Assembly (NCBI GenBank): GCA_017500825.1
Contig: JAFVYB010000114.1
Location: 5,420-69,419 of the forward strand
Source of the DNA: Myxococcaceae bacterium
GTDB taxonomy: Bacteria; Myxococcota; Myxococcia; Myxococcales; UBA5297
Direction of reading: 5' to 3'
Length of the DNA: 64,000 nucleotides
Positions 29,896 to 64,000 of this stretch are shown in pieces. The notes under the pieces are model-generated. The model was given only the letters and a program-made list of their open reading frames with translations, was not told the DNA's origin and did no database searches. Each line of letters opens with the position of its first letter. Within the stretch, counting starts at the first letter, position 1. Position numbers and translations under genes: made by a program.

Positions 29896-31590
29896 ATGCC
29901 CAAGCTCACCTTCGGCGCCAGATCCTTCGCTCTCACCGCGACGGGTCTGGCGCTTTTTGCGTTGTTTGCCCTTCACGAGGCCTGCCCTGGCCACCTCAGG
30001 CGCGATCGCCTCGGAACCCCCGTCTCGACCGCGACGGAACAGGATCGCGCGGAAAAGCGCTCCCCAACAACCGCGGCCAAGCCACGCGGCGCTCCCTCTT
30101 TGCTCGACTTTCCTGCAGGCGCGGAGGCACCGGCTGGCCCCCACGCGACGCGGCCGCGACGACCTGTCCGACTGGCGACGCGCGTGCGCGCTTCAATCGC
30201 AACCCTGCTGCAGGCAACGGGAGGCGTGGGGTTTCATCCGGAATCGGCGGCCAACAGAGGGCACGGGGTGCGGCTGCAGCTGACCATCGCGCAGAGTGAG
30301 GAAGAGCTCATCTCCCTCTTTTTGCGCGGCGGCGACGATGGCGGCGCTGACTTGGTCGCGATGAGTCTGGAGCGCTTCGTGGCTCTCCTGCCCAGACTCC
30401 AGCCTGCCAGGCCCAAAATTTTCCTCCTCCTGGCCAATTCGCGCGGCGCCGACAGCCTGCTGACGACCGCTCGCGTGGCCTCGATCGGCGAACTGCGCGG
30501 ACGGCGCATCGCCTACGATCAGACAGACGCCGGGCTCTATTTTTTGACATGGCGGATGCTCAAGGAGGGGCTCACGCTCGACGCCGTCACGCTGAAAGCG
30601 GCCACCTCCCCCGCCGAGGCACTGCGCTGGCTGCGCGAAGGGCAGGTGGACGCCGCCTTAGTCCACGACCTCGAACTGGCGCGCGGCATCGGCATCCCGG
30701 TCGAGCCTCAGGACGATCACCTGCATGAAGCCGAACCTCTGGACGCGCCGATGACAGAGGAAGCGCTGGCGGTCGAAGGCGCCGAGGAAGGCGTTGGCGA
30801 CATGGAAGCGCCGCTGGAGGACGACGGCTTGAATGGCGACGAGGCAGACGAGGATGCGCCCAGCCATCTGCACCGGCTGGCCTCCACCGCCGACGCGCCG
30901 CGTCTCGTGCCCCAGGTCCTGATCGGCCGGGGTGAGTTTTTGGCCCGCTACCCGGATGTCGCCCGCAGGACCGCGCGCGCCCTGCTCGCCGAGGCGCTGA
31001 ACACCGACGACGATCCCCTGCCAGCGGCGCGGCGACTCCTGGAGCAGGTGCCGACCTTGAGAGATCCGCGCGACGCCATCCGCCGCGAGCCGCCCGCTTC
31101 CTTCGCCGAAAACAAGGCCTTTTTCAGGCTCGACGGCCAGAGCGCGCCCGTCGCCTACGCGGATCTCTTCGCGAGCATCCGGCGCGTTCTCGACAAGCTG
31201 CAGAGCGAACCGACGATTGGCGAAGCGGACGACTTTTTTTGGGAAGCGCCCCTGCGGAGGCTCTCGGCCAAGTCGATCGCCTCTGGTCGCATGATCGCCA
31301 GGCGCGCCGCCCAGGCACGCGCGACACCGACCAACGCCGAGCCAGACAGAAACGACTCCGAGACGGCGACGCCTCCGCCTGAACGAGCGCCACAGGACAC
31401 ATCCGCGGAGACAGCCCAGCCCGTCGCGTCCATGCAGGAAGAGCCCGCCGACCGCGCGCAGGGGACGCCCGGCGAGAGCGATTCAATCGATTCGCCAGCG
31501 CACATCGCCGCCCCGGAAGCGACGGCCGCCGACATAGCGCCAGGCGAACCGGACGTGGCCGAGGCCAGCGCCGCGAACGACGATCCTTAA
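29896..31590 (+). CDS. Secreted protein with an NMT1/SsuA-like periplasmic substrate-binding fold, an acidic insertion and an acidic tail; hypothetical
   Basis: Signal-like N-terminus (FALTATGLALFALFAL). Segments such as ...KIFLLLANSRGADSLLT...GELRGRRIAYDQTDAGLYFL...LREGQVDAALV...LIGRGEFLARYPDVARRTARALLAE resemble ABC-type sulfonate/nitrate binding proteins. Assignment rests on pattern recognition only. Confidence 0.4.
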   Translation: MPKLTFGARSFALTATGLALFALFALHEACPGHLRRDRLGTPVSTATEQDRAEKRSPTTAAKPRGAPSLLDFPAGAEAPAGPHATRPRRPVRLATRVRASIATLLQATGGVGFHPESAANRGHGVRLQLTIAQSEEELISLFLRGGDDGGADLVAMSLERFVALLPRLQPARPKIFLLLANSRGADSLLTTARVASIGELRGRRIAYDQTDAGLYFLTWRMLKEGLTLDAVTLKAATSPAEALRWLREGQVDAALVHDLELARGIGIPVEPQDDHLHEAEPLDAPMTEEALAVEGAEEGVGDMEAPLEDDGLNGDEADEDAPSHLHRLASTADAPRLVPQVLIGRGEFLARYPDVARRTARALLAEALNTDDDPLPAARRLLEQVPTLRDPRDAIRREPPASFAENKAFFRLDGQSAPVAYADLFASIRRVLDKLQSEPTIGEADDFFWEAPLRRLSAKSIASGRMIARRAAQARATPTNAEPDRNDSETATPPPERAPQDTSAETAQPVASMQEEPADRAQGTPGESDSIDSPAHIAAPEATAADIAPGEPDVAEASAANDDP

Positions 31591-38450: not shown

Positions 38451-39227
38451 TCAGATGCCCTCGGCGATGAGCACCGTCTCCGCCTCTTCACGGCGCAACG
38501 CCAGCTGCGCGCCCAGGCACTTGATCCACACGCTCTCGCCCCCGGGTCCGAAGCGCTCCAGCTCGATCAGCGCGTTGGGCAAAAGCCCCATGTCGAGCAT
38601 GCGTTGGCGGATGGCGCCATGCGAGACGATGTTGGCGACGCGCGCCCTTTCGCCGGGTCTGAGATCGACGAGCGACCGCGCGGGTCTGGGCGGCTTTTGA
38701 GGATGGCACAGCGCGCAGTGGTCGATCTCTGCCGCGCCGGTCGCGTCCTCGATGGCGGGCGCCTCGCCGTGTCGCCTCGGGCAGGCGTGAAAGCGCGCGA
38801 TGACGCCGTCGACGTCCGGACAGGTGTCGAGAAACTCGAAAAAGCGCACGAGCTGATTCATGCCGCTGTCGGTCAGACCGTGTTCCATGGCGCAGGACTG
38901 AGCCTCCGCCTCGTCGGGCGGCAGCTGCAGCACCTCGGCAAAGAAGCGGCAAAGCAGCTTGTGGCGGGCCAGGATCTTGCGCCCCATGCTGAGTCCCGCC
39001 TCGGTCAGGGCAATCGCGCCACGCCGCTCGTAGCCGACAAACCCCAGCTCTTCGAGCTTGCGCAGGGCCATCGACACCGAGGCCGCTTTGACCGCGCGGG
39101 CACGGGCGATGTCCTTGACGCGGACGCCGCCCTTCTTCTGGGCCAGCTCGTAGATCGTCTCCAAATAGTCTTCGAGCGAGGACGACAGACCCGGCTCGGC
39201 CGCGGGATGCGAGGGCGTTTCGTTCAT
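38451..39227 (-). CDS. DtxR/MntR-family metal-dependent transcriptional regulator with a C-terminal FeoA-like domain
   Basis: LEDYLETIYELAQKKGGVRVKDIARARAVKAASVSMALRKLEELGFV (wHTH), RHKLLCRFFAEVL (dimerisation/metal helix), and C-terminal LVDLRPGERARVANIV...LLPNALIELE (FeoA/SH3-like). A Cys/His-rich insert lies between them. Confidence 0.85.
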   Translation of the reverse strand: MNETPSHPAAEPGLSSSLEDYLETIYELAQKKGGVRVKDIARARAVKAASVSMALRKLEELGFVGYERRGAIALTEAGLSMGRKILARHKLLCRFFAEVLQLPPDEAEAQSCAMEHGLTDSGMNQLVRFFEFLDTCPDVDGVIARFHACPRRHGEAPAIEDATGAAEIDHCALCHPQKPPRPARSLVDLRPGERARVANIVSHGAIRQRMLDMGLLPNALIELERFGPGGESVWIKCLGAQLALRREEAETVLIAEGI

Positions 39228-39552
39228 GGGCGCGCCCGTCTAGTGAGGCCCAAGGAGCGCTTCAAGGGATTTCTCGCCCGTTCCAGCGCCGTCGCGTTCC
39301 GAAGCTGAGCGCCTGGCGCCATCGAGCGCGAACTGGCCCGCGCCATCAAAATGTCGAGGTTTTGTATCGCCAATTTAACCTCTCAAAATTCGCTTGCGGA
39401 CACCCGGCAGTTTTGCTTTCTGCGCCGCCGCGTTTGAGAGGCCTTTGGATGGCCAGGGCGTCCGCTCGCCCTACCTCGACGCGCTCATCTTCCGCGCGTT
39501 TTCGGCCCTTTGTCGCCCTTCGCGCACCTTACCCTACAGAGAAGGATGTCCC

Positions 39553-39981
39553 ATGTCCCGAACCCTCAAGCTCCTCTCCAGCCTCGCCCTCTCACTCTGC
39601 CTCGCCTTTGGCGCCCTCGGTTGCGACGGCGAGGAAGACCCTGAAGGCGATCTGACGCTCAGCTTCACCTGCTGGGATGGCTACAGCGCTACCTCCGATT
39701 ACTGCCACCTCTACGACCAGAACAGCGACTCAATCACCGTTCGCATCTTCGATGCCTATGGCAATCAAGTCGCCGAAGAAGTCCTCTGGTGGACTGATGG
39801 CAGCACCATTACCTTCCTGGATTTGCCCGCCAGCGACTACGGCTATGACGCCTATGTCTATTCGGCCGACGGCATTCTTCTCTATGCAAACGATGGCACG
39901 GACGGATATGGCAATCCTTACGCCCTCACCGTCCTTGAGGGACGCAATAATACATACGAAATCGCTTTAGTCCGTCCATAA
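39553..39981 (+). CDS. Small secreted, probable lipoprotein, hypothetical (142 aa)
   Basis: MSRTLKLLSSLALSLCLAFGALGC (lipobox-like ALGC), Asp/Tyr/Gly-rich mature part, GAAGGA Shine-Dalgarno. GC is lower than the core genes. Confidence 0.6.
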   Translation: MSRTLKLLSSLALSLCLAFGALGCDGEEDPEGDLTLSFTCWDGYSATSDYCHLYDQNSDSITVRIFDAYGNQVAEEVLWWTDGSTITFLDLPASDYGYDAYVYSADGILLYANDGTDGYGNPYALTVLEGRNNTYEIALVRP

Positions 39982-40014
39982 CTTAAACCTGTCGACGAAT
40001 TATTCTCGACGCCC

Positions 40015-40045
40015 AAACCCGACCAATTTATTGGCCGGGTTTTTT
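40015..40045 (+). terminator. Rho-independent terminator
   Basis: cccgaccaa (40018-40026) pairs with ttggccggg (40031-40039) with one mismatch, 4-nt loop, then T6 (40040-45). It lies 34 nt after the lipoprotein stop. Confidence 0.6.
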
Positions 40046-40292
40046 AATGCACAACAATCATCTAAACAAAACAAAAACAAGGCACTGCCGAATTTAGCTC
40101 GATTTAATTAATTTAATTATTTTATTAAATTTAAACACAACAACACCATTCAACCTTGGATTAAAAATTAAATCGGGCAAATACCCAAAGCCTCCTCAGG
40201 TGAAGCGGCATTTTTTCCTTTGACTGCGCCCTCTTTTGCCCGAAAGAGCGCCCTCCCTTTTCGCGGCCTCCCCTCCTCCCCCCTCTCACGCC

Positions 40293-42452
40293 ATGTCCAA
40301 CGAGTCCCTGTTCGACCATCAAGCGCAACCTTTCTGGGACGAGGCGGGGACCTATTTCCCGCCCGGTTTTGATCCGCAGACGGGTCAGTGGATCGACCCG
40401 GCCTATGAGGAGGCCTATGCCCAGGGCTTTGTCTGGGACGCGGCGTTGCAGGACTGGGCGCCGCTCGATTTGGCCAGCGTCGAGGCGCGCCAGGACAGCG
40501 CCGATGGCGAGCCTGTGGAAATCGCCGAGGCAGAGGAAGTCGAAATCGATGAAGTCGACGAGGTTGAGGAAATCGACGACATCGAGGTCGAGGAGGCAGA
40601 GGAGGCCGAAACGCTCGATCAGGGCGATGTGGGCGCGCGGGCACAGGCGGCGGAGAACCCCGAGGGAGAGCGGGCAATTGGCGCGGCTGTTTTTCAACTG
40701 CTCGCCAGGCGCGCGGCCGGACAGAGCGATTCAGAGGCGGGGGTTCAGCAACGGGAGGCGCTGGCGCTGGAGACGGCGGCGGTGGCCAGGTGTTTGCTCG
40801 ACGCCATCGCGCGCGACGCCGATGAGACGACTGCCATCGACAGTGAAGGCGATCGCGAGGCGCTGGAACTCGTCTTCGCCATCCTGCGTCAGATCGCCCC
40901 CAGGGAAGAGGACGAGAGCGTCGAGTTGCGACCGGAGAGCCAGCCCACGCAGGTGCCGCTGATCGGGAGCGCCGATATCGCCGCCGCGCCGCGCTTCTCT
41001 GTCCTGCCCAACGAGATCGAACGCGGAACGAGGCCGCTCGCCAACGACGTGTGGGAGCTCGTCGAGGCCCGCGACTTCTCGCGCCAGGGAACGGACGAGG
41101 TGCGGCTCGCCACGCTGATCGAGCTGCCGCCCCTGCCCTTTGACGATGTCCAGAGCGAACAGACGGACGTGCCGCTCCTCCTCAAAAACGGACTGCCGCT
41201 GCCGCTCGGCTTTGACGCCGAGATCGATCCTGCGCCCCATCCCGTGGCCGGTCCTAATCCGCCGCCAGCGCCCACCCCAGCCCAGCGAAGTGACCTCATC
41301 CGCCTGATCGACCGCGCGCTCGACCTTTTGGAAAGCGCCGCGCCGGCCCAGCTGGAGCAGTCGATTTGCGTGCCGCTTGAAACAGCGCGCGACGAGGCGA
41401 ATGCCCAGGATCTGGCGCTCGACACCTCCTCCCTCTGGCTCAGCGCCGCGCAGCTGGCGGTGGACTTTGCCCCGGGGAGCGCCTCCTCGACTCAGGATCC
41501 GCCACCGGCTGGCGCCATCGCCCACGCCCTCTCTGCCTTGACCGACGGTGGCGGGCGACCTCCCGCAGCGCGCGCGAACCTCTCTTCGCGAGTCGACACG
41601 CTTGAGATGCCCATGGTGCGGCTGAGGCGCCCCGATCGCCTGCCGACCGCCGACGCGCCCGAACTGTCAACGCCAAGCGCCGGTGGGGAACGCGCCAGCC
41701 TCAACCTGAACGCCCTGACCATCCGCATGAGGCGCCCCTCGGAAGCGGACAACGGGCGCATCGAAGTCGACAGCGGTGACGATTTGCCCTCCGACGACAT
41801 CGAACTGGCGCTCACGGCTCTGGCCTCGTTCATCCAGCGCCAGAACACGGCGAGCAGCGGTCGGCCCGCGACGCCACTTCCGCCATCAGCGCCTCCGGTC
41901 GCCTCCGCGCGCAAAGCTGTGCCGCCGCCTTTGCCCGCCAGACCCGCCATTCCCGGAAAAAAGCCGCCGCCGCCCCTGCCCCGCGCGCCGCTCTCGCAGC
42001 AGATCACGCCGCTTTTGGGCGTCGCCCCGCAGCCAGCCGAGCCCAAGCCGCAGCCGCCGGCCAACGTCCCCGTGGCCATCGCCCTCAACGGCACCTTTCG
42101 CGTGGTCTGCCGGACGCTCGACGGCGCCGTCTACCGGGGCATCCTGCAGCACCCCAACCTCACCGCGCCGACGCTCACCCTCGCGCTCCAGCCCGGTCCC
42201 TCCATCCTGACGCTGGAAACGCGCTCGCTGCAGGCCATCTTCTTTTTGCGGCGCTCAGGACAGGGCGAGATCGTTCCCGAGGGTCGCAAGGCGCGTCTGC
42301 TGTTCAAGAGCGGTCGCCAGCGCAGTGGACTCATCCCCGCCTTTGATCCGCACGGCTCAGGGTTCTTTTTCTACCCGAGCCAGACGCAGGGCTCCCCCAC
42401 CGAGTTCTGGTTCGTCTACGGCGCCAGCCTCGCCGCGATCGATTTCGAGTGA
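40293..42452 (+). CDS. Proline-rich/acidic low-complexity protein with a structured C-terminal beta-rich domain, hypothetical
   Basis: ORF 40236..42452. N-terminal W/Y-rich segment (FDPQTGQWIDPAYEEAYAQGFVWDAALQDWAPLD), an acidic run (EEVEIDEVDEVEEIDDIEVEEAEEAE), long P/A-rich regions, and a C-terminal roughly 120 aa (FRVVCRTLDGAVYRGIL...LQAIFFLRR...FWFVYGASLAAIDFE). Confidence 0.6.
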   Translation: MSNESLFDHQAQPFWDEAGTYFPPGFDPQTGQWIDPAYEEAYAQGFVWDAALQDWAPLDLASVEARQDSADGEPVEIAEAEEVEIDEVDEVEEIDDIEVEEAEEAETLDQGDVGARAQAAENPEGERAIGAAVFQLLARRAAGQSDSEAGVQQREALALETAAVARCLLDAIARDADETTAIDSEGDREALELVFAILRQIAPREEDESVELRPESQPTQVPLIGSADIAAAPRFSVLPNEIERGTRPLANDVWELVEARDFSRQGTDEVRLATLIELPPLPFDDVQSEQTDVPLLLKNGLPLPLGFDAEIDPAPHPVAGPNPPPAPTPAQRSDLIRLIDRALDLLESAAPAQLEQSICVPLETARDEANAQDLALDTSSLWLSAAQLAVDFAPGSASSTQDPPPAGAIAHALSALTDGGGRPPAARANLSSRVDTLEMPMVRLRRPDRLPTADAPELSTPSAGGERASLNLNALTIRMRRPSEADNGRIEVDSGDDLPSDDIELALTALASFIQRQNTASSGRPATPLPPSAPPVASARKAVPPPLPARPAIPGKKPPPPLPRAPLSQQITPLLGVAPQPAEPKPQPPANVPVAIALNGTFRVVCRTLDGAVYRGILQHPNLTAPTLTLALQPGPSILTLETRSLQAIFFLRRSGQGEIVPEGRKARLLFKSGRQRSGLIPAFDPHGSGFFFYPSQTQGSPTEFWFVYGASLAAIDFE

Positions 42453-55945: not shown

Positions 55946-56216
55946 CCTTTTGGGAGCCGTTTCGGCTAAGAGGCCGCGCCGCTCGGCGCCCCCCTGTCCA
56001 TCATCGAGGCGCCCTGGGCACGCCGCCCTCCTGTCAGGGCACGCGCCACAGCGCGCTCGACGCTTTGGGCGCGCGGGATGAGCACTTCGGGCCTGTTCGC
56101 GCGGGGGAATTCCTGCCGCCGCTTTTGTCCATGCCTGGCGCCCTTCCCTCCCCTTGTCAGTCTTTCCCTGGGGTCGGCCTTCGGGCCCGCCCACCTCTGC
56201 AGAAACGAGTCCCTCC

Positions 56217-59153
56217 ATGGCCGATACCGAGATGCCGCCTCCTTCCGACGACGCCGCCTCCGACGCGAAGCGCGCCGACGGTGCCCCTGCCACTGGCCTG
56301 CCAGTCAACGACACGCCCGATGGTCCTGGCGCCCCACCGCCCAGCGCCGGCTCTGACGCGCCGCCGCCGCGATCCATCATCCCGATCGCCATCGAAGACG
56401 AGATGCGGCGCTCCTACCTCGACTACTCGATGAGCGTGATCGTCGGCCGCGCCCTGCCCGACGTGCGCGATGGCCTCAAGCCGGTCCACAGGCGCGTCCT
56501 CTTCACGATGGACGAGCTGGGCAACCACTACAACAAGCCCTTCAAGAAGTCGGCGCGCACCGTCGGCGATGTCATGGGCAAGTATCACCCGCACGGCGAC
56601 CAGGCCATCTACGACACCCTGGTGCGCATGGCTCAGGACTTCTCGCTGCGCTACCTGCTCATCGATGGCCAGGGCAACTTCGGCTCGGTCGACGGCGATC
56701 CCCCGGCGGCGATGCGTTACACCGAGGCGCGCCTGACCCGCCTGTCCGAAGAGCTCCTCGCAGACCTCGACAAGGACACCGTCGATCTCGGGCCCAACTA
56801 CGACGAGTCGCTGACCGAGCCGATGGTCCTGCCGGCGCGCTTTCCCAACCTGCTCGTCAACGGCTCCGAGGGCATCGCCGTCGGCATGGCCACCAAAATC
56901 CCGCCGCACAACCTGGGCGAGGCCATCGACGCCACGATCCACCTCGTCGATCACCCGGAGGCCACGGTCGCCGACCTGATGCAGTTCATCCCCGGCCCCG
57001 ACTTCCCCACGGCGGGCTTCATCCACGGGCGGCGCGGCATCTACGACGCCTACACCACCGGTCGCGGCCACCTGAAAGTCCGCGCGCGCGTCGACATCGA
57101 GGTCGATCCCAAGACCGATCGCGAGACCATCGTTGTCACCGAGCTGCCCTATCAGGTGAACAAGGCGCGCCTCATCGAGAGCATCGCCCAGTTGCACAAG
57201 GACAAGGTCGTCGAGGGCATCACCGGACTGCGCGACGAATCCGACCGCCGCGGCATGCGCATCGCCATCGAGGTCTCGCGCAACGCCATGGCCCAGGTGG
57301 TGCTCAACAACCTCTTCGCCCACACCGACCTGCAGACGACCTACGGCGTGATCATGCTGGCGATCGACAACGGCCAGCCGCGCGTCCTCAACCTCAAGGA
57401 ACTGCTCGCGCGCTTCATCAGCCACCGCCGCGACGTGGTCACGCGCCGCACCCGCTTCGAGCTGAGAAAAGCCGAGGCCAGGCGCCACATCGTCGAGGGC
57501 CTGCTCGTCGCCCAGGACTTCATCGATCACGTCATCTCGCTCATCCGCGCCTCCAAAGATCCGGAAGAGGCCAGCTGGGGGCTGACGCGCATCTTCACCG
57601 ACGAGATCTACGAGCGCGATTCCTTCAAACACCTGCCGCGCGTCTCCCTCGACATGGCGCGCGAACGCATGGCCGCCCTCACCGCACGGCTCAACAGCGA
57701 CGAGCCCAAATGCGGCGCCCTCACCCACGCCTACAGCGACCGCGGCTTCTCCCCGGAACAGGCCAAAGCCATCCTTGAGATGCGCCTGCAGCGCCTGACC
57801 GGGCTGGAGCGCGAGGCCCTCATCGGCGAGCTCGTCGACCTCGTGCGCGCCATCGCCTGGTATCGCGAGATTCTCGACAACGAGAAGACGCTGCTCGGCG
57901 TGATCAAGGACGAACTGAGCGAAATCCGCGAAAAATACGCCGACGAGCGCCGCACCCAGATCGTCGACGAGGCGGGCGATCTCTCCATCGAGGACCTCAT
58001 CGCCGAAGAGGACATGGTCGTGACGCTCTCGCACGACGGCTACGTCAAGCGGAACCCGGTCAGCGACTACCGGGCGCAGCGCCGTGGCGGACGCGGCAAG
58101 ACAGGCGCCTCCACCAAGGAAGACGATTTCGTCGAGCAGGTCTTCGTCGCCTCGACCCACGCGCACCTGCTCATCTTCTCCACCAAGGGCCGCCTCTACT
58201 GGCTCAAAGTCCACGAAATCCCGGCCGCCGGTCGCACCTCGCGCGGCAAGGCCATCGTCAACATGGTGAAGTTCGACGAGGACGAAAAACTGGCCGCCGT
58301 CCTGCCCGTCAGCGCCTTCGAAGCCGATCGCTGCGTGGCCTTTGTGACCAAAAACGGCGTGGTCAAGCGCACCGCCCTCTCCCAGTTCTCGCGTCCCCGC
58401 GCCTCCGGCATCAACGCGCTCGGCATCGAGGACGGCGACGCGCTCAAGGCCGCCCTGCTCACCGACGGCACCAAAGATCCGTTGCTCTCGACGCGAACGG
58501 GCATGGCCATCCGCTTCCAGGAGACGGACGTGCGCGTCATGGGCCGCCAGGCCTTTGGCGTCAAAGGCATCGAGCTCGAAGCGGGCGACGCGGTCGTCGG
58601 CGCCGAGGTGGTCGAAGTCGGCCAGACCATCCTCACCATCACCGAGCGCGGCTTTGGCAAGCGCACCGACGAAGGGCTCTACCGGGCGCAGCACCGCGGC
58701 GGCAAAGGCCTCATCGACATCAAGACGACCGAGCGCAACGGCCAGGTCGCCGGCGTGCTCCAGGTCAAAGACACCGACGAGATCGTCATCATCACCAACC
58801 GCGGCATGCTCATCCGCACCCGCGTCAACGAGATCTCGACCATTGGCCGCAACACCCAGGGCGTCCGCCTGATCTCGCTGGGCGAGGGCGAAAAGGTCTC
58901 AGGCGTCGCCAAGCTGCCCGAGGATCAAACCGAAACCGACACGCCAACGCCCCTGGAGGCGACCAGCGCGGATGCATCCAGTGGTAATGCGAATGAATCA
59001 AGCGGCAATGCGCATGCATCCAGCGCCGACGCGGCCGAAACAAATTCAGACGCCAATGAAACAAATGCCGACGCAATCGAAACAGACGCCATGGCGAATG
59101 AAACCGCCACTGACGACGCCACCCCACCCCCCGACAATGAATCAACAGACTGA
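56217..59153 (+). CDS. gyrA: DNA gyrase subunit A
   Basis: [38 protein letters not shown], the active-site region ([10 protein letters not shown]), and C-terminal beta-pinwheel repeats. Start at ATG 56217 (MADTEM). Pro/Ala-rich N-terminal extension of about 60 aa and an acidic tail of about 75 aa. Confidence 0.95.
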
Positions 59154-59209
59154 GCAAGGAACGTTGGGAAATCAGACGGCATTCAACAATTTAAAGAAGG
59201 ACAATAAAA

Positions 59210-59936
59210 ATGTTCTACGAAAATATTTTAAACAAAAAACGAGGGGGGGGGTATCCTCAAGGTTATTCACGGCTATCCCCCAGAATATAACGCGGGTTCG
59301 GAAAATTATTCCAAAACGGTTTGCGACGAATTATCCAAGACAAACCGCGTCTCGGTCTTTACTCGCGAAGAAAATTTCTACGCCCCTGATTTTTCAATTC
59401 GGATTCGTCAGGACAATCCAAATCTGACGATTTATTATATCAATCATCCGCAGGGCAAGGACGGTTACCGCCACGCGCGGTTGGACGCGGTTTTTGCCGG
59501 GCTCGTGGATGAAATTCGCCCCGATGTCGCCTACATCGGGCACCTGAACCACCTCTCCACTGGCATTGTCGATGTATTGAGCGACAGAAAAATTCCCATT
59601 GTCTTTATGCTTCACGACTATTGGCTCATGTGTCCCCGGGGGCAATTCCTCATGCGGAGCATTGGGCGTGGGAATAATTTCATGCTCTGCCCGGGACAGA
59701 GTGATGAAAAATGCGCCCGTGACTGCTACGAGGTTTATTTTTCTGGCCGCGAAGACACAAGAACAGCGGATATGGCCACTTGGACGAATTGGATTCATCG
59801 CCGCATGGAGGAAACGCGAACAATGATTCAGAAGGTCAATCTGTTTATCGCTCCGTCCAATTATCTCCGGAAACGCTTTGTTCTGGATTTCAGGCGTTTT
59901 CCCGGGATAACGTCGAGTGATATATTGAACAAGTAA
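59210..59936 (+). pseudogene. Decayed GT4-family glycosyltransferase: N-terminal (GT4 N-domain) half only, frameshifted at a G9 tract
   Basis: ATG 59210 gives MFYENILNKKRGGG, then runs out of frame. The +1 frame from 59253 reads ILKVIHGYPPEYNAGSENYSKTVCDELSKTNRVSVFTREE...DVAYIGHLNHLS...IPIVFMLHDYWLMCPRGQF...LFIAPSNYLRKRF, which is typical of the N-terminal half of GT4 enzymes. It stops at 59934-59936 before any C-terminal Glycos_transf_1 domain. Confidence 0.7.
59243..59251 (+). repeat. G9 homopolymer at the frameshift point of the GT4 remnant
   Basis: ...aaaaaacga GGGGGGGGG tatcctcaagg... With G8 the ATG at 59210 would be in frame with the conserved ILKVIHGYPP block. Confidence 0.9.
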
Positions 59937-60008
59937 ACAATACAAAGCGCTACTCGCGGCTTACAAAGACGCGCGAGATCTGCAGTGCAGCAAAATGAGG
60001 AGTTGTGA

Positions 60009-62525
60009 ATGGATAAAAAACAAAAAATAGGCGTCATCATTGCGACGTCGATGGCAAGAAATGAAAGCCTTTTTTCATTATCATTAAATTCCGTTTTGAA
60101 CCAAACTGTAATGCCGGATTGCATCGTTATAGTTGACGACAACAATAATAGATCTACATCCGCAGAAATTGAAACCAGGATTAAACAAAATAATTTTAAA
60201 ATTTTACACTACACAAGAAACAAAAACACTAAGAATATGTCTGGAACCGGGGCATGGAATACAGGTATTGAATTTCTAAAGGATAAAATTGGCGAGGACG
60301 GTTATGCCGCATTTTTAGACGATGATGACAGTTGGGACCTGAATTACATTGAAAGCATTCGTCAACAAATACATGAAAATCCAAACACGGAAGCAGTATT
60401 TGCATTTTTGAAACGCTCAGATTGTCAGAATGTTTCAGAATTCAAGCTAACCGATCTGACGATTGAAAATTTTTTGATTGGAAATCCGGGCATTCAAGGC
60501 AGCAATATGTGTTTTAAGATTGGAAATCTGTTGAAAATAAATGGATTTGACGAACATCTCTCCAGCTGTTCCGACAGAGACTTAATGATAAGATTTTTAG
60601 AGGCTTTCGGAAATAAGGGCATCTTCATCATAGAAAAAAAATGTGTAAATCATTTTACGGGAAACGGAACAGTGACGTCTAATTTTGAAAAGAAGAAAAA
60701 TGGATTGGACTATTTTTTCAAAAAACACATCAAATCGTTTAATCTTCAAACACTTCAAAAATCACTGAGCCGCGCAAAAAAACTTTTCAACTATCCTCAT
60801 GATAAAAAGATTAACTCTCTCTTCAGAAAACAAACAACAGTTTTAATTACCGGCGTCTGCGGCTTTGTCGGTTCGCATGTCGCACGGGAGTTATCTAAAT
60901 GCGGATATTTTGTAATCGGAATTGACAATTTAGCGACGGGCTCCTTGGTGAATATTGAGGATTTTTCTCAAAACGATAATTTTCAATTTATCAATTTATC
61001 TATAAACAACGAGGGCGAGTTGAGAAGATTGTTCGAAGTCCATCCCATTGATTACGTGTTTCATCTTGCAGCCCTGCCTAGAATAAAATACTCTTTTGAT
61101 TATCCGAATGAATCTTACAATGCAAACGTTATTGGAACTAAAATCGTCGGAAAGATTGCCGCAGACTCTAATGTGAAATTATTTGTTTTTGCTTCATCTT
61201 CATCGGTTTACGGCGAGTGTGAAAATGTTAAAATGAGAGAAAGTGACGTTCTCCATCCGATGTCGCCATACGCAGAACAAAAGGCGAAAGCTGAAGAACT
61301 TCTGCAGGAAATTTTTAAGGCGTCCAACAGCTGTCTATTAATCCTTAGATTTTTTAATGTTTATGGGTTTTCATTTCAGCCGGTCGACCAATACTCGACA
61401 CTGATCGGAAAATGGGTTTCAGATATTAAAAATGGAAATTTAATAACGATCAATGGAACAGGAAATCAGTCGAGGGACTTCACATATATCGATGACGTCG
61501 TGACCGCCGCGCTCAATTGCCTAGAGGTTTATGATGCAAAAAAACAAATCAATATTATAAACATTGGAACAGGGATATCAACCAGAATAAATACAGTGGC
61601 TTCTTTTTTTGAGCAGATATTTGAGCAGAAAATTAAAAAGATAATTAAATCTCTGAATTATCAGGAGCCGCTATTTACCTGCGCCGACAATTCAAAGGCG
61701 AAGGAGCTTTTGAATTGGGCGCCTCAAGTGCCGTTAGAGGCTGGTTTAAGACTATATGTAAAAACTATAATCACTAAAGAACAACCCATTGCAATCGGCG
61801 TGGCGATGCACAACAACAGAAAAACAATTCGCAGATGTCTTGATTCTATCTTGCGCCAAAAAAAAGTAAACCGCCGTCTTAAAATCATTCTTGGAAACGA
61901 CAATTCATCTGATGACTGGCAAAAAGAAATCTCCGACTTCTTGTCAGACAAAAGGATCGATATTTTACCATTAAATAATAACAATATAGTTCAAACACGA
62001 AATGCGATAAATGAATTTATCGCACAAAAATATCCAGGTGCCGCTCTGATTGGACGTCTGGATGCTGATGATGAATATGCCGATGATTATGTATTGTCGA
62101 AAATTGAAGAGATCTTGGAATTACACGATCCAGACGTGATATTGGCAGGAAATTATTTGCGTCAGGACGGGGCGTTGCTTGAACGGAAAAATTTGGCATA
62201 TAAGCAATTTTCTGATCAAAATTATATTTTATTTCGATTGAAGCAGATGGCCAACAGTATTCCTGAAGGAGAGCTGCCGTCATGCAATTTGTTTGTGAAA
62301 CCCAATGTACTTCGACCCTATCCGGATGTAAAAAGCGGAGAAGATCATGAACTGGTGGCACATTATCTTATGAATCAGAGGAAATATCATATTTTTTTCG
62401 CGGAAGATATTTTGCTGACGATTTATGAGTTGGGAGGAAGCGTTACAGCTAAAAATAAACAGTCGGAGAATTACATCAGCTGCCGAAGAGAATTATATCA
62501 AAAAGCCTTGGAGGATTTGCTATGA
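60009..62525 (+). CDS. Tri-domain fusion: GT2 glycosyltransferase, NAD-dependent sugar epimerase/dehydratase (extended SDR), second GT2 glycosyltransferase
   Basis: 838 aa. The first GT2 spans aa 6-225 (IGVIIATSMARNESLFSLSLNSVLNQT, IVIVDDNNN, FLDDDDSWD). The SDR spans aa 277-587 (VLITGVCGFVGSHVA Rossmann GxxGxxG, ASSSSVYG, SPYAEQK YxxxK). The second GT2 spans aa 592-810 (IAIGVAMHNNRKTIRRCLDSILRQ, ILGNDNSSDD, RLDADDEY). GAGGAG Shine-Dalgarno 8 nt upstream. About 33% GC. Confidence 0.85.
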   Translation: MDKKQKIGVIIATSMARNESLFSLSLNSVLNQTVMPDCIVIVDDNNNRSTSAEIETRIKQNNFKILHYTRNKNTKNMSGTGAWNTGIEFLKDKIGEDGYAAFLDDDDSWDLNYIESIRQQIHENPNTEAVFAFLKRSDCQNVSEFKLTDLTIENFLIGNPGIQGSNMCFKIGNLLKINGFDEHLSSCSDRDLMIRFLEAFGNKGIFIIEKKCVNHFTGNGTVTSNFEKKKNGLDYFFKKHIKSFNLQTLQKSLSRAKKLFNYPHDKKINSLFRKQTTVLITGVCGFVGSHVARELSKCGYFVIGIDNLATGSLVNIEDFSQNDNFQFINLSINNEGELRRLFEVHPIDYVFHLAALPRIKYSFDYPNESYNANVIGTKIVGKIAADSNVKLFVFASSSSVYGECENVKMRESDVLHPMSPYAEQKAKAEELLQEIFKASNSCLLILRFFNVYGFSFQPVDQYSTLIGKWVSDIKNGNLITINGTGNQSRDFTYIDDVVTAALNCLEVYDAKKQINIINIGTGISTRINTVASFFEQIFEQKIKKIIKSLNYQEPLFTCADNSKAKELLNWAPQVPLEAGLRLYVKTIITKEQPIAIGVAMHNNRKTIRRCLDSILRQKKVNRRLKIILGNDNSSDDWQKEISDFLSDKRIDILPLNNNNIVQTRNAINEFIAQKYPGAALIGRLDADDEYADDYVLSKIEEILELHDPDVILAGNYLRQDGALLERKNLAYKQFSDQNYILFRLKQMANSIPEGELPSCNLFVKPNVLRPYPDVKSGEDHELVAHYLMNQRKYHIFFAEDILLTIYELGGSVTAKNKQSENYISCRRELYQKALEDLL

Positions 62526-64000
62526 ACAACGATGAAAGAAAGCAAAAGGCATTGGAAATCCTTACCGATATGGGATTAAAAAATCTAGAGTACTTGGGAC
62601 AGGGATGTGAAGGCATCGTTTTTCACGATGGTGTCTCTGTTTACAAAGTGCTCGTTCCATTTTATTTTGGGAAAAACAAAAACGAAACATTGCGACGTTT
62701 GTCCTACTTTCGAAATATTTCAGAGTGTCAAAACATATACAGACTTGAAGAAATTTGTGAACACAGCGGATTCATCATTGAAAAATATCCCTATGAACGA
62801 TCAATCCCCTGCGAAAGTATTACTGAGAGTGAAGCGATAGAATTTCTCACTGCGTGCTGGCAGGAAAAATTGATCGTTAAAGATTGTAAATTAAAGAACT
62901 TTGTTCGTGTAAACGGAAAGGTGAAGCTCGTAGATCTGGATGCCTGTGGATACAATGATAATTTGTTTCTTAATATGTGCATAAGATCGTTTTTGTATTC
63001 TATTTTTTATAATAAAATTAATTTCGAAGCATTTCAAAAACTTCAACGGAGCGCGATAAATAATTTCGATTTACCGGAACTCGAGGGAGCACGCGAATTT
63101 GTGAATAAAGTTTTTGCAAATATAATTTTTGAAGAATCAAAATCTGTTATACAAGGGTTTAAAATCCGCGAAGATGTCTATGACAACAACATATACCTTG
63201 CCGGAAATCTGCCGAATTTTGAAAATATTTTTTATGCTGGGATTAAGGAAAATAAATTTTTGAAAGATATAAAAATTTCAGATGTAATTATCAACGAGAA
63301 CTTATATTTTGAGCCACAAAAAGTCGTCGTTCACTTTGATGAATTAAAGCCGCTTAAAGAGAAAGTAACGCTTTTAATAAAAACATGTGCACAGGACGAA
63401 TTTACTGTTGAAGCCAATGTCAAACACATCGTCAGACAATTGTCTTCGCCCAATCCATTTTCTGAAATAGTGGTTTTAATTGATTCGAAAAAAAGTGACT
63501 TTCTCAGAGAATTTAATTCTCGCGGAACTTTGAATGGTATTATCGAACGAGTTCAGAAGCTTCAAGAAGCGGGGATCATTGATCGATTTGTTGTTTATGA
63601 TGATTCAAAGACAGAGGAAATAAATTTACGCTGGTTTAATTTGCCGTCGAAGTATGCGCACACGACCAAAAACATTCCTGTAAGTTCTCAGCTGTATGCA
63701 TTTGAGCAATGTTCTGGCGACTACATTTTACAAGCTGATTGCGATGTTCTGATTGGAAGAAAGGATTATAACCATTCTTTTTTAACGGATATGATTGCAC
63801 AGCTGAAACAGAATGAACGAGTTATATCAGTCGGGTTCAATATTTATAACAGGGAGTCAAAAGAATATTTCGGTTTTGACAATGGAAGTTTTGTCCCTGA
63901 AGTACGTCTAGGTTTATTTGACAAAAAACGCTTTTTCTCCTTGAAGCCCTTTCCAAACGAACTTGATTCAGACGGTAAATTAAAACTATCCTGGTACCGT
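62522..64000 (+). CDS. Fusion of a minimal protein-kinase-like (PKL) domain and a GT-A-type glycosyltransferase-like domain; 3' end runs off the window
   Basis: Not in the ORF track (no stop in the window). My translation of 493 codons contains no stop: MNNDERKQKALEILTDMGLKNLEYLGQGCEGIVFHDGVSVYKV...LIVKDCKLKNFVRVNGKVKLVDLDACG... (GxGxxG loop, VYK lysine, DxKxxN catalytic loop, DLD), then ...VTLLIKTCAQDEF...VVLIDSKKS...GDYILQADCDVLIG (GT-A DxD-like). Its start overlaps the upstream stop (ATGA at 62522-62525). Confidence 0.75.
   Translation, partial: MNNDERKQKALEILTDMGLKNLEYLGQGCEGIVFHDGVSVYKVLVPFYFGKNKNETLRRLSYFRNISECQNIYRLEEICEHSGFIIEKYPYERSIPCESITESEAIEFLTACWQEKLIVKDCKLKNFVRVNGKVKLVDLDACGYNDNLFLNMCIRSFLYSIFYNKINFEAFQKLQRSAINNFDLPELEGAREFVNKVFANIIFEESKSVIQGFKIREDVYDNNIYLAGNLPNFENIFYAGIKENKFLKDIKISDVIINENLYFEPQKVVVHFDELKPLKEKVTLLIKTCAQDEFTVEANVKHIVRQLSSPNPFSEIVVLIDSKKSDFLREFNSRGTLNGIIERVQKLQEAGIIDRFVVYDDSKTEEINLRWFNLPSKYAHTTKNIPVSSQLYAFEQCSGDYILQADCDVLIGRKDYNHSFLTDMIAQLKQNERVISVGFNIYNRESKEYFGFDNGSFVPEVRLGLFDKKRFFSLKPFPNELDSDGKLKLSWYR

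What the first reader, a model, noticed from the sequence alone, without database searches (positions are those of the whole stretch)
59154..64000. Abrupt compositional island (about 33% G+C against about 68%) starting right after gyrA and encoding only glycan-assembly fusion enzymes
**Composition.** My line counts give 68% at 58561 (gyrA). They give 35% at 59161, 32% at 60061, 32% at 61981 and 35% at 63301.

**Content.** The island holds a broken GT4 gene (about 47% GC), an 838-aa GT2-SDR-GT2 fusion and a PKL-kinase/GT-A fusion coupled by an ATGA overlap. It continues beyond the window. No integrase, tRNA, transposase or flanking repeat is visible at the left edge.

**Interpretation.** A halving of GC within about 100 bp is extreme. 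The most likely reading is a recent horizontal acquisition of a compact, unconventional surface-glycan (capsule, O-antigen or teichoic-like) pathway from a low-GC donor.

**Alternative to exclude.** This could be a chimeric assembly join. The junction zone contains a G9 tract, and poly-G is a known artefact of two-colour sequencing chemistry.
Basis: partly seen in the sequence, partly recalled or inferred. Interest (0 to 1): 0.75.

Follow-up and report, generated by a model that had tools for sequence, protein, structure and literature searches.

The report
Foreign two-gene sugar-enzyme cassette beside gyrA
A soil-type (Myxococcota) bacterium has recently taken up about 6.4 kb of low-GC foreign DNA next to gyrA; it carries two giant multi-domain sugar-handling enzymes that always travel together across many phyla, and in other genomes they sit beside 7-deazaguanine (queuosine-precursor) genes and restriction systems, not polysaccharide exporters, so their product is probably not an ordinary surface sugar coat.

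Summary
The GC drop is real. Host genes have 65-69% GC (GC3 0.85-0.90); 59154-59891 has 48%; 59892-64000 has 36.7% (GC3 about 0.36).

It is not a misassembly. Four independent assemblies carry the same gyrA-island junction.

The low-GC insert is about 6.4 kb. Its true left edge is window 59892, inside an older foreign GT4 gene; a sister-strain contig still has that gene intact. The right edge lies about 2.3 kb beyond the window.

The cargo is two genes:
- **A**: 838 aa, GT2-SDR-GT2.
- **B**: 1066 aa, protein-kinase-like domain, two GT-A domains and a twitch radical-SAM domain.

A and B are adjacent in the 54 full-length-B loci of 56 inspected across many phyla, and fused in about 15. Both lack membrane segments and are under purifying selection.

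Recurrent operon partners elsewhere are a sugar-nucleotide SDR, QueC and the preQ0/preQ1 transporter YhhQ (14 of 38 loci). Several copies sit inside type I R-M or GmrSD islands. Only one relative has an exporter gene.

Verdict: recent horizontal acquisition is supported and the surface-glycan reading is not. The best reading is a cytoplasmic glycoconjugate assembly line, probably linked to 7-deazaguanine. Its chemistry is unknown.

The parts
56154..59153 (+). gyrA, the host anchor gene (65.8% GC, GC3 0.87). Its C-terminal acidic low-complexity tail at about 58500-59150 is hypervariable between strains.
   Evidence: Pfam DNA_topoisoIV 2e-160 and DNA_gyraseA_C. It is 76% identical to GyrA of uncultured Myxococcales MAGs. 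Divergence profile.
59154..59891 (+). Older foreign segment (47.7% GC): an intergenic stretch plus the 5' part of a GT4 glycosyltransferase gene (ATG at 59210). A sister strain has this segment with the intact gene.
   Evidence: L145 is 99.6% identical to L001 up to L001 9883 (= window 59891). It then continues into the Glycos_transf_1 half of the GT4 gene and a different radical-SAM gene. GC3 is 0.38.
59241..59251 (+). Homopolymeric G tract (G-A-G9 here) at about codon 11 of the GT4 ORF. In this window its length puts the ATG at 59210 out of frame with the GT4 body.
   Evidence: Tract lengths are G13 (L001, L002, L004; in frame), GA+G5 (L003; in frame), and GA+G9 (window) and G11 (L145), both -2. 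Translation.
59210..59936 (+). Truncated GT4 ORF (242 aa when in frame). It has only the Glyco_transf_4 N-domain. The last 15 codons (59892-59936) are read from the inserted DNA.
   Evidence: Pfam PF13439 only. Full-length homologues are 415-424 aa with PF00534. Breakpoint from the L145 comparison.
59892..64000 (+). The low-GC insert (36.7% GC) as far as the window goes. Its total length is about 6.4 kb in sibling contigs (L001 9884 to about 16264).
   Evidence: Composition. L001 and L002 are co-linear to L001 16264, then differ.
60009..62525 (+). Gene A, 838 aa: GT2 (aa 1-265, DDDD motif), extended SDR epimerase/dehydratase (aa 277-591, GxxGxxG and YxxxK) and GT2 (aa 592-838, DADD motif). A Shine-Dalgarno AGGAG lies 7 nt upstream.
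   Evidence: Pfam Epimerase 1e-53 and Glycos_transf_2 6e-28 in 2 stretches. NCBIfam GalE-like 1e-50, below the cut-off. The protein is identical in 5 contigs, with 5 synonymous and 0 non-synonymous differences between haplotypes. No TM segment.
62522..64000 (+). Gene B, first 493 of 1066 codons, starting in an ATGA overlap with A. The window holds the protein-kinase-like domain (aa 1-215), a beta-rich linker (aa 223-280) and the start of GT-A domain 1 (aa 282 onward). Beyond the window lie the rest of GT-A 1, GT-A 2 (aa 568-800) and a twitch radical-SAM domain (aa 820-1066; CNLKCFGC plus 5 conserved C-terminal Cys).
   Evidence: Translation. Pfam. Alignments A2 and A3. AlphaFold model with pLDDT 82.6. 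Foldseek.

Best explanation
**What it is.** About 6.4 kb of low-GC DNA (window 59892 to about 2.3 kb past the window end) was recently acquired by an uncultured Myxococcota lineage. It replaced the 3' half of an older foreign GT4 gene just downstream of gyrA, and whatever followed that gene.

**Cargo.** The insert carries one conserved, self-contained two-gene cassette:
- Gene A: GT2-SDR-GT2.
- Gene B: PK-like kinase, GT-A, GT-A and a twitch radical-SAM domain.

The two are translationally coupled here, adjacent in every full-length homologous locus found, and fused into one polypeptide in many.

**How it most likely works (inferred).** A and B form a soluble, cytoplasmic, seven-domain assembly line.
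1. The SDR epimerises or dehydrates a UDP-sugar.
2. The four DxD GT-A domains, two tandem pairs folded like bifunctional glycosaminoglycan polymerases, add sugars.
3. The kinase domain phosphorylates a sugar hydroxyl.
4. The BtrN/SpeY-like radical-SAM domain oxidises, or otherwise radical-modifies, a sugar carbon.

**Likely substrate (inferred).** The only recurrent operon partners in other genomes are an SDR, QueC and the preQ0/preQ1 importer YhhQ. The acceptor or a building block is therefore most likely a 7-deazaguanine (CDG or preQ0-derived) moiety, not a lipid-linked surface polysaccharide.

**Shown versus inferred.**
- Shown: the composition, the boundaries, that the junction is genuine, the domain content, the conservation and fusion of the pair, purifying selection, and the neighbour statistics.
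- Inferred: the order of reactions, the 7-deazaguanine link for this particular copy (no queC or yhhQ lies in this island), and the product.
For: **Composition and boundaries.** Searches give the GC figures and the right edge. (L145) give the left breakpoint.

**Independent assemblies.** The junction is present in several samples.

**Absence from relatives.**

**Domains.**
- Pfam and NCBIfam.
- B model: pLDDT 82.6, pTM 0.79.
- Foldseek PDB top hits: K4CP chondroitin polymerase 1e-16, COLGALT1, PmHS2 and LARGE1. The kinase lobe matches Aurora-A and CaMKII at 2e-6.
- The rSAM domain matches BtrN 4m7t at 5e-5 and SpeY 7wzv/7x0b at 1-3e-4, then BlsE and viperin.
- Invariant K42, N126 and D138 in the kinase; DxD in all GT-A domains; CX3CX2C plus C973, C979, C991, C1026 and C1029.

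**Conservation of the pair.**
- A lies directly upstream of B in the 54 full-length-B loci of the 56 inspected, from Opitutales, Bacteroidales, Campylobacter, Treponema, Fibrobacter, Flavobacteriia, Chitinophagales, Gammaproteobacteria, Myxococcota and Thermoplasmata.
- The two are in a single open frame in about 15 loci, and 1540-1804-aa fusion proteins exist.

**Selection.** A shows 5 synonymous and 0 non-synonymous differences. B shows 37 and 24.

**Solubility.** No TM segment in A or B.

**Operon partners.** Among same-strand ORFs within 150 nt: SDR 9, Vut_1/YhhQ 7, QueC 7. All tested QueC and YhhQ neighbours pass the NCBIfam equivalog cut-offs.

**No exporter.** The neighbour census found no exporter or priming transferase among recurrent families.
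Against: - This island itself carries no queC or yhhQ, so the 7-deazaguanine link is by homology of context only.
- 24 of the 38 dereplicated loci also lack these genes next to the cassette.
- No TGT/DpdA, QueD, QueE or FolE appears among the recurrent Pfam families in either neighbour census.
- No preQ1 riboswitch was found.
- The closest B relative (73% identity) has an ABC-2 membrane permease directly downstream.
- Two loci have MBOAT and two have UDP-glucose dehydrogenase neighbours. The best fold matches are capsule polymerases. All of this fits an exported glycan.
- The fold similarity of the rSAM domain is modest (TM 0.46-0.49, model pLDDT 72).
- The catalytic-loop Asp of the kinase is Asn in a subset of homologues.
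- No donor with more than 73% identity is known.
Confidence: 0.55

Rival explanations
1. The cassette is a polymerase and tailoring module for an exported surface polysaccharide (capsule, EPS or teichoic-like). It would use exporters and lipid primers encoded elsewhere in the host genome.
For: - Four GT-A domains and an SDR are present.
- The best fold matches are the bifunctional capsule and GAG polymerases K4CP and PmHS2.
- An ABC-2 permease lies 16 nt after B in the closest relative, L150.
- MBOAT and UDP-glucose dehydrogenase occur in 2 loci each.
- The insert landed in a locus that already held a GT4 gene with a phase-variation-like poly-G tract.
Against: - No Wzx, Wzy, Wza, KpsMT, priming transferase or ABC ATPase is among the recurrent neighbours in 38 loci.
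- This reading does not explain QueC or YhhQ abutting or overlapping the cassette in 14 of 38 loci.
- It does not explain insertion between hsdM and hsdS.
- A and B have no membrane anchor.
Confidence: 0.28
2. The cassette is a nucleic-acid hypermodification or defence module. It would glycosylate and phosphorylate a 7-deazaguanine base in DNA or tRNA, or make a 7-deazaguanine sugar nucleoside analogue. It would serve as the self-marking or effector arm of restriction-like systems.
For: - In Phnomibacter sp. MR the order is hsdM - [A-B] - hsdS - GmrSD - GmrSD - hsdR. In L122 it is hsdM - A-B - QueC - hsdS.
- GmrSD overlaps the start of A in L129. A DEAD/ResIII protein follows QueC in L131. SbcD/SbcC follows B in L117. 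Fic and resolvase are neighbours in other loci.
- GmrSD_N is the commonest family in neighbour ranks 3-5.
- QueC and YhhQ are operon partners.
- The distribution is patchy and HGT-prone.
Against: - No TGT/DpdA-type base-exchange enzyme is among the recurrent Pfam families in either neighbour census, which between them cover the five nearest ORFs on each side.
- PADLOC has no model hit beyond generic rSAM similarity to pVip.
- Four GT domains seem excessive for a base modification.
- The copy in this window stands alone, with no restriction partner.
- Defence-island location can simply reflect an integration hotspot.
Confidence: 0.25
3. The GC step is a chimeric assembly join, possibly seeded by a poly-G sequencing artefact.
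For: A homopolymer G tract lies near the junction. One Logan contig (L004) starts exactly at the tract.
Against: - The same gyrA -> GT4 -> A -> B order is present in L001 (27.5 kb), L002 (27.7 kb), L003 and the window. These come from different samples and assemblers, at 98-99.9% identity.
- L001 shows high-GC host DNA on both sides of the island.
- L145 independently confirms gyrA joined to the GT4 gene.
Confidence: 0.02
4. The cassette is inert passenger DNA, recently acquired, unexpressed and on its way to decay in this high-GC host.
For: - Codon usage is extremely foreign: GC3 0.36 against 0.87.
- No convincing sigma-70-like promoter lies upstream of A.
- The adjacent GT4 gene is truncated, and frameshifted in this window.
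Against: - Both long ORFs (838 and 1066 codons) are intact in all five contigs and both haplotypes.
- Substitutions are biased to synonymous sites: A 5:0, B 37:24, roughly dN/dS 0.2.
- There is a good Shine-Dalgarno before A and translational coupling of A and B.
Confidence: 0.1

Closest known systems
Bifunctional tandem GT-A glycan polymerases (E. coli K4 chondroitin polymerase K4CP/KfoC, Pasteurella heparosan synthase PmHS2, human LARGE1, COLGALT1)
   Same: B has two consecutive GT-A domains with DxD motifs in one soluble polypeptide. These are the best Foldseek matches to the B model: 2z86 at 1e-16, 9evj at 3e-10, 8vh8 at 2e-8 and 7ui6 at 2e-6.
   Different: - Sequence identity is only 10-14%, and TM scores are low because only part of the protein aligns.
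- B adds an N-terminal kinase-like domain and a C-terminal radical-SAM domain.
- No kps or ABC export genes accompany it.
- It is always paired or fused with a second GT2-(SDR)-GT2 protein.
Twitch radical-SAM carbohydrate dehydrogenases BtrN (butirosin) and SpeY (spectinomycin); BlsE decarboxylase (blasticidin S)
   Same: The domain has a CX3CX2C cluster plus a short C-terminal Cys-rich auxiliary-cluster region. These enzymes are the best fold matches to the rSAM-only model: 4m7t at 5e-5, 7wzv/7x0b at 1-3e-4 and 7vob at 7e-3. 7wzv is also a sequence-profile hit at 9e-5.
   Different: The known enzymes are stand-alone proteins of actinobacterial or Bacillus antibiotic pathways. Here the domain is fused to glycosyltransferases. 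The TM score is only 0.46-0.49, and the activity is untested.
Protein-kinase-fold glycan kinases (bacterial WaaP; animal POMK and FAM20B). This comparison comes from general knowledge and was not tested here.
   Same: A PK-like domain works alongside glycosyltransferases. B conserves the ATP-binding Lys (K42), the metal-binding Asn (N126) and the DFG-type Asp (D138). Its fold and profile matches are to eukaryotic-type kinases.
   Different: There is no detectable sequence relationship to those families. The catalytic-loop Asp is Asn in some homologues. The substrate is unknown.
7-Deazapurine glycoside biosynthetic clusters (huimycin, dapiramicin) of Actinomycetota
   Same: They combine preQ0 supply with glycosyltransferases and sugar-tailoring SDRs (PMC7439116; bioRxiv 10.64898/2026.04.15.718813). 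Relatives of this cassette have QueC or YhhQ and an SDR as operon partners.
   Different: - Those clusters carry the full FolE/QueD/QueE/QueC set.
- They use a GT4-type (PF13439) transferase and methyltransferases.
- They have no kinase or rSAM-GT fusion.
- They occur in Actinomycetota.
Dpd 7-deazaguanine DNA-modification/restriction islands and the QueC-family defence systems (QatABCD, type IV CBASS Cap9/Cap10)
   Same: QueC or YhhQ genes sit next to non-tRNA enzymes in defence-island contexts. Here those contexts are type I R-M and GmrSD/DUF262 proteins. Background is in PMC13082051 and PMC13279940.
   Different: No DpdA or TGT-like transglycosylase appears among the recurrent neighbour families, and no QatA, QatB, QatD or CD-NTase was seen. 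The QueC neighbours score as canonical QueC. The core enzymes are glycosyltransferases.
Low-GC glycan islands next to housekeeping genes (O-antigen, capsule or LOS loci with poly-G contingency genes, as in Campylobacter, Neisseria and Haemophilus). This comparison comes from general knowledge.
   Same: Both show an abrupt low-GC segment full of glycosyltransferases beside a conserved gene, strain-to-strain replacement of content, and a poly-G tract in the 5' coding region of a GT gene whose length differs between samples.
   Different: This island has only three genes and no wzx, wzy, wzm or wzt. The host is a 65-68% GC Myxococcota. The cassette is shared with archaea and many phyla as a fixed pair.

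Membership tests
Horizontally acquired genomic island | Composition and codon usage deviate sharply from the host | tested here: met
   GC is 0.367 against 0.649. GC3 is 0.34-0.37 against 0.85-0.90.
Horizontally acquired genomic island | Absent from related genomes at the same position, or polymorphic between strains | tested here: met
   All 14 related Myxococcota loci lack a comparable low-GC island after gyrA. Sister contig L145 has an intact GT4 gene and a different gene at the site.
Horizontally acquired genomic island | Mobility signatures: integrase or transposase, tRNA target, flanking direct repeats | tested here: not met
   There is no tRNA. No mobility gene is called in the island on L001-L005. 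No repeat is shared by the two edges. The insertion looks like replacement by recombination.
Surface polysaccharide gene cluster (Wzx/Wzy-, ABC- or synthase-dependent) | Glycosyltransferases and NDP-sugar-modifying enzymes | tested here: met
   Four GT2-type GT-A domains (two in A, two in B), a truncated GT4 and one SDR.
Surface polysaccharide gene cluster (Wzx/Wzy-, ABC- or synthase-dependent) | Initiating (priming) transferase and an export or polymerisation apparatus in the locus | tested here: not met
   There is none in the island. None is among the recurrent neighbours of 38 homologous loci. Only L150 has an ABC2_membrane gene. A and B have no TM segment.
Bifunctional GT-A capsule/GAG polymerases (K4CP, PmHS2) | Two GT-A domains in tandem with DxD motifs | tested here: met
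   The Foldseek top hits are 2z86 and 8vh8. D406/D408 are invariant; the D662 motif is invariant in A2 and nearly invariant in A3.
Bifunctional GT-A capsule/GAG polymerases (K4CP, PmHS2) | Sequence-family membership and a kps-type genomic context | tested here: not met
   Identity is 12-14%. The PDB profile search finds only SpsA and GalT1-level GT2 similarity. There are no kps genes.
Twitch radical-SAM dehydrogenases (BtrN/SpeY) | CX3CX2C motif plus a C-terminal auxiliary-cluster Cys set | tested here: met
   C835, C839 and C842 are invariant, as are C973, C979, C991, C1026 and C1029.
Twitch radical-SAM dehydrogenases (BtrN/SpeY) | Overall fold match and carbohydrate alcohol oxidation activity | tested here: inconclusive
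   The best folds are BtrN and SpeY, but with TM 0.41-0.49 and a model pLDDT of 72. The activity cannot be tested here.
Eukaryotic-type protein-kinase-like fold | Gly-rich loop, ATP-binding Lys, D-x-K-x-x-N catalytic loop and DFG-type Asp | tested here: inconclusive
   GxGxEG, K42, N126 and D138 are invariant. D121 is replaced by Asn in 5 of the 21 homologues aligned. Profile matches to kinases are weak (E 0.07-0.9). Fold matches reach 2e-6.
7-Deazaguanine DNA-modification system (Dpd) | DpdA (TGT-family) DNA transglycosylase together with preQ0 synthesis genes | tested here: not met
   No TGT family is among the 25 commonest Pfam families of either neighbour census (125 ORFs in ranks 1-2, 138 in ranks 3-5). 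QueC is present in 7 and YhhQ in 7 of 38 loci, but neither is in this island.
Known anti-phage defence systems (PADLOC models) | A match of the core proteins to a defence-system model | tested here: not met
   A and the GT4 fragment have no hits. B has only generic rSAM similarity to pVip, at 4e-10 over 120 residues.
Phase-variable contingency gene (homopolymer slippage) | A homopolymer in the 5' coding region whose length differs between populations and switches the frame | tested here: met
   G13, G11, GA+G9 and GA+G5 occur in different assemblies. Lengths 13 and 7 are in frame and 11 is out of frame. Homopolymer assembly error is not excluded.

The most novel reading that the evidence does not exclude
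The A-B pair (GT2-[SDR]-GT2 plus kinase-GT-A-GT-A-twitch rSAM) may be a previously undescribed system that builds a phosphorylated, radical-modified glycan on a 7-deazaguanine base. The base could be in DNA, in tRNA (a bacterial and archaeal counterpart of glycosylated queuosine), or part of a free nucleoside analogue. The system would act in self/non-self marking or anti-phage conflict. That would explain its QueC and YhhQ operon partners, its insertion inside type I R-M operons, its GmrSD neighbours and its promiscuous horizontal spread, including into this Myxococcota genome.
Probability: 0.25. Interest if true: 0.85.

Novelty: new variant of a known kind. Interest (0 to 1): 0.6.

Why it matters
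Locally, this is a clean, recent inter-phylum gene transfer into a high-GC genome. Both boundaries are defined, and a sister strain preserves the pre-insertion state.

More broadly, the cargo belongs to a rare family. Only 352 representatives match among 1.84 billion clusters. The family is phylogenetically scattered, and no description of it turned up in the six literature searches run here.

The architecture is a seven-domain enzyme pair, often one polypeptide of 1,500-1,900 aa. It combines two tandem glycosyltransferase pairs, a sugar-nucleotide SDR, a kinase-like domain and a sugar-type radical-SAM domain.

Its genomic company is QueC, the preQ0/preQ1 transporter, type I R-M, GmrSD and other nuclease or helicase genes. 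This points away from ordinary cell-surface polysaccharides. It points towards 7-deazaguanine chemistry, a field where new DNA, RNA and protein modifications are still being found.

Cultured carriers exist: Phnomibacter sp. MR, Lutibacter citreus 1KV19 and Porphyromonadaceae COT-184. The question is therefore directly testable.

Tried and rejected
- **Misassembly.** Rejected, because the junction recurs in independent assemblies.
- **Search of species-representative genomes with A alone.** The patterns matched nothing related. The search succeeded only with an alignment of B.
- **PADLOC and NCBIfam on A, B and GT4.** No specific family was found, only generic GalE-like SDR and generic rSAM similarity (MoaA, twitch, viperin).
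- **QueE-like identity of the rSAM domain.** No QueE model appears among the NCBIfam hits. The fold is closest to BtrN and SpeY.
- **preQ1 or other riboswitch upstream of cassette operons.** None was found at gathering thresholds in 13 loci or at E<=1 in 4 loci.
- **Extending the L145-type allele (intact GT4 plus a different rSAM gene).** A 35-mer scan of JGI metagenomes found no match.
- **Phage origin.** Only four weak relatives (24-36% identity) exist in IMG/VR. The best of them lacks the kinase and rSAM architecture. BFVD fold hits are generic multi-GT proteins of giant viruses and phages.
- **Flanking repeats or target duplication.** None is shared between the left and right edges.
- **Promoter and terminator scans.** These were uninformative, apart from a strong terminator belonging to the convergent host gene at the right edge.
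- **Literature.** Searches for QueC, YhhQ, glycosyltransferase and radical SAM combinations found no description of this cassette.

Full report
**1.

- In 300-nt windows GC is 0.62-0.71 through ligA, tilS and gyrA. It falls to 0.45-0.52 between about 59050 and 59950, then stays at 0.30-0.42 to the window end.
- Over the whole window only a few stretches fall to 0.50-0.58, and none approaches 0.37.
- By segment: 1-59153 = 0.649; 59154-59891 = 0.477; 59892-64000 = 0.367.
- Third-position GC is 0.85-0.90 in host genes. It is 0.37 in A, 0.34-0.36 in B and 0.38 in the GT4 fragment.
- Pfam confirms the gene content: GyrA; a Glyco_transf_4 N-domain only; an 838-aa GT2 / Epimerase-SDR / GT2 protein (60009-62525); and an ORF starting at 62522 in an ATGA overlap.
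- There is no tRNA in the window.

**2. It is not an assembly artefact, and it is short**

- The exact 838-aa protein is encoded on five contigs from five samples.
- L001 (27.5 kb), L002 (27.7 kb) and L003 all run gyrA -> GT4 -> A -> B. They are 98.4-99.9% identical to the window.
- L001 has high-GC host genes on both sides. The low-GC tract ends about 550-730 nt after the stop of B, at L001 16264-16440.
- The window therefore misses only the last 1.7 kb of B and a short AT-rich tail.

**3. The true left edge, and the earlier state of the locus**

- Full-length homologues of the 242-aa GT4 ORF are 415-424 aa and carry a Glycos_transf_1 domain.
- One hit, P0271, lies on contig L145 from a sister sample of L001's study.
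- L145 is 99.6% identical to L001 from the gyrA tail up to L001 9883 (= window 59891).
- It then continues into the missing C-terminal half of the GT4 gene and the start of a different radical-SAM gene. All of this is about 50% GC.
- So the 37% GC DNA was inserted at 59892. It replaced the 3' half of an older, already foreign GT4 gene and whatever followed it.
- The insert is about 6.4 kb (L001 9884-16264, GC 0.376).
- No integrase, transposase, tRNA or edge repeat is present. The event looks like replacement by recombination at a variable locus.

**4. Host, and absence of the island from relatives**

- GyrA is 76% identical to uncultured Myxococcales and 'delta proteobacterium' MAGs, and 64-70% identical to Archangium and Vitiosangium.
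- All 14 related loci lack a comparable low-GC island after gyrA. Only UBA1203 (L018), whose locus averages just 0.61 GC and dips to 0.48 right after gyrA, shares the ligA-tilS-gyrA order.
- Two island haplotypes exist: H1 = L001, L002 and L004; H2 = window, L003 and L005.
- Host flanks differ by about 1% between haplotypes. The island differs by 0.2-0.4%.
- The exception is a 500-nt patch in the rSAM region of B with 62 mismatches, which looks like a recombination patch.
- Substitutions are biased to synonymous sites: A has 5 synonymous and 0 non-synonymous differences, B has 37 and 24.
- Both long ORFs are intact in every copy. The genes are therefore maintained by selection.

**5. What the cargo is**

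- **A** is GT2 (DDDD motif), an extended SDR (GxxGxxG and YxxxK; GalE/TviC-like but below the NCBIfam cut-offs) and GT2 (DADD motif).
- **B**, full length from L001, holds an N-terminal protein-kinase-like domain, two GT-A domains and a radical-SAM domain.
  - The rSAM domain has CNLKCFGC and five further conserved Cys.
  - In the kinase domain, GxGxEG, K42, N126 and D138 are invariant.
  - The catalytic-loop Asp121 is Asn in some homologues.
- An AlphaFold model of B is good (pLDDT 82.6, pTM 0.79).
- Its best PDB matches are bifunctional tandem GT-A polymerases: K4CP at 1e-16, COLGALT1, PmHS2 and LARGE1. The N-lobe matches Aurora-A and CaMKII at about 2e-6.
- A separate model of the rSAM domain (pLDDT 72) matches the twitch carbohydrate dehydrogenases BtrN (5e-5) and SpeY best, then BlsE and viperin. 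A sequence profile also hits SpeY (7wzv) at 9e-5.
- Neither A nor B has a membrane segment.

**6. The cassette elsewhere**

- B has several hundred homologues.
- A search of 1.84 billion cluster representatives with the kinase plus first GT-A part finds only 352 hits. About 15 of them cover both domains.
- In species-representative genomes the family is scattered. It occurs in Opitutales (68% identity), Bacteroidales, uncultured Campylobacter, Treponema, Fibrobacter, Lutibacter, Chitinophagales, Parabeggiatoa, high-GC Myxococcota and 'Deltaproteobacteria' (34-37%, with native GC), and Thermoplasmata archaea.
- In each of the 54 full-length-B loci of the 56 inspected, a GT2-(SDR)-GT2 homologue of A lies directly upstream of B.
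- In about 15 loci A and B are in one open frame, and 1540-1804-aa fusion proteins are on record.
- Where A lacks the SDR, a separate SDR gene usually abuts the pair.
- In most low-GC hosts the cassette is still several GC points below its flanks, which fits frequent transfer.

**7. Neighbours**

- I dereplicated the loci to 38 and scanned the two nearest ORFs on each side (125 ORFs) against Pfam. Counts were:
  - SDR families 13
  - QueC 7
  - Vut_1 (YhhQ) 7
  - HsdM 3
  - HsdS 3
  - Metallophos/SbcD 3
  - GmrSD 2
  - UDP-glucose dehydrogenase 2
  - MBOAT 2
- No Wzx, Wzy, Wza, ABC exporter or priming transferase appears among the listed families.
- Restricting to same-strand ORFs within 150 nt leaves three recurrent partners:
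  - SDR, 9 loci, downstream.
  - YhhQ, 7 loci, always upstream and usually overlapping A.
  - QueC, 7 loci.
- The QueC neighbours pass the TIGR00364 equivalog cut-off. The YhhQ neighbours pass TIGR00697, 'queuosine precursor transporter'.
- In Phnomibacter sp. MR the order is hsdM - [A-B] - hsdS - GmrSD - GmrSD - hsdR. In L122 it is hsdM - A-B - QueC - hsdS.
- Other abutting genes are GmrSD (L129), Fic (L093), SbcD/SbcC (L117), a resolvase (L121) and a 1731-aa DEAD/ResIII protein after QueC (L131).
- In neighbour ranks 3-5 the commonest family is again GmrSD_N. TGT, QueD, QueE and FolE are not among the families listed.
- The one exporter seen is an ABC-2 permease after B in the closest relative, L150.
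- No preQ1 riboswitch was detected.

**8. Interpretation**

- Firmly shown: a recent horizontal acquisition of a conserved, selected, two-gene and seven-domain cytoplasmic glyco-enzyme cassette, at a strain-variable site beside gyrA.
- The domains imply UDP-sugar tailoring, up to four glycosyl transfers, a phosphorylation and a radical oxidation or rearrangement of a sugar-like carbon.
- The surface-polysaccharide reading fits the folds, the single ABC-2 neighbour and the MBOAT and UDP-glucose dehydrogenase neighbours. It does not explain the QueC and YhhQ operon partners (14 of 38 loci) or the R-M and GmrSD embedding.
- I therefore favour a product that contains or is built on a 7-deazaguanine moiety.
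- Precedents for glycosylating preQ0-type bases exist in the huimycin and dapiramicin clusters of Actinomycetota, which use unrelated enzymes (PMC7439116; bioRxiv 10.64898/2026.04.15.718813).
- QueC-family enzymes are also known to be recruited to defence systems.
- Whether the target is a free base or nucleoside, tRNA or DNA cannot be decided here.
- The lack of a TGT-type enzyme argues against a Dpd-like mechanism.
- This island itself has no queC or yhhQ. In this host the link rests on homology of the cassette alone.

**9. Novelty**

- The island as such is an ordinary kind of thing: a low-GC glycosyltransferase island beside a housekeeping gene.
- The cassette is an undescribed variant. 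No PADLOC or NCBIfam family covers it, and six literature searches and two papers read found no description.
- Its architecture and genomic associations are unusual.

Noticed in passing
window 59241-59251 (and L001 9231-9243, L003 about 395-401, L145 278-288): The poly-G tract at about codon 11 of the GT4 ORF differs in length between assemblies. It is G13 in L001, L002 and L004 (in frame), GA+G5 in L003 (in frame), and GA+G9 in the window and G11 in L145 (both -2). This looks like slipped-strand phase variation of a glycosyltransferase, which is unusual for Myxococcota. Homopolymer assembly error is not excluded.
   Followed up: partly
L001 15000-15500 (B residues about 829-995; outside the window): 62 mismatches between the two island haplotypes are packed into 500 nt of the radical-SAM core, while the rest of the island differs by 0-4 mismatches per 500 nt. 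This looks like a gene-conversion or recombination patch from a diverged allele.
   Followed up: partly
L001 16133-16480 versus L002 7654-7860 (right edge of the island, outside the window): Two contigs with the same island haplotype continue into different host genes: T2SSE/CAP against thioredoxin/DUF4175/Peptidase_MA_2. They share two hairpin elements (38 and 44 nt) in swapped order. Three Logan contigs all end at L001 about 16133-16137. This is either a real rearrangement or assembly ambiguity at REP-like repeats.
   Followed up: partly
window 58500-59150: The C-terminal tail of GyrA is an acidic low-complexity repeat (N-E-T/S-x-A-D-like). It is by far the most divergent host stretch between strains, with 51 mismatches and 44 gap columns per kb against about 1% elsewhere.
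   Followed up: no
window 4000-10000, 13000-14000, 26000-30000 and 39000-41000: These are other stretches of reduced GC (0.50-0.62) in a 0.65-0.70 background. The first holds a T2SSE/PilB-like paralogue (6180-7229, minus strand) that is 45% identical to the T2SSE gene flanking the island in L001. They may be older acquisitions or pilus and secretion loci.
   Followed up: no
L145 1567-1794: In the sister strain the intact GT4 gene is followed, with overlapping stop and start, by a different radical-SAM gene (motif CNFHCIMC). The pre-insertion locus was therefore itself a GT plus rSAM module of about 50% GC.
   Followed up: no
L126 (Phnomibacter sp. MR, NZ_CP123968, locus 5900-21837): This is a complete type I R-M operon with the fused A-B gene (1645 codons) inserted between hsdM and hsdS. 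Two GmrSD-family genes lie between hsdS and hsdR. It is a cultured strain suited to testing the function.
   Followed up: partly
one search hit list (P0390-P0504): The first GT-A domain of B (motif HPQNYRK) also occurs at about residue 1200 of a separate set of proteins of about 1,700-1,960 aa that lack the kinase-domain match. This points to a wider family of giant multi-GT proteins.
   Followed up: no
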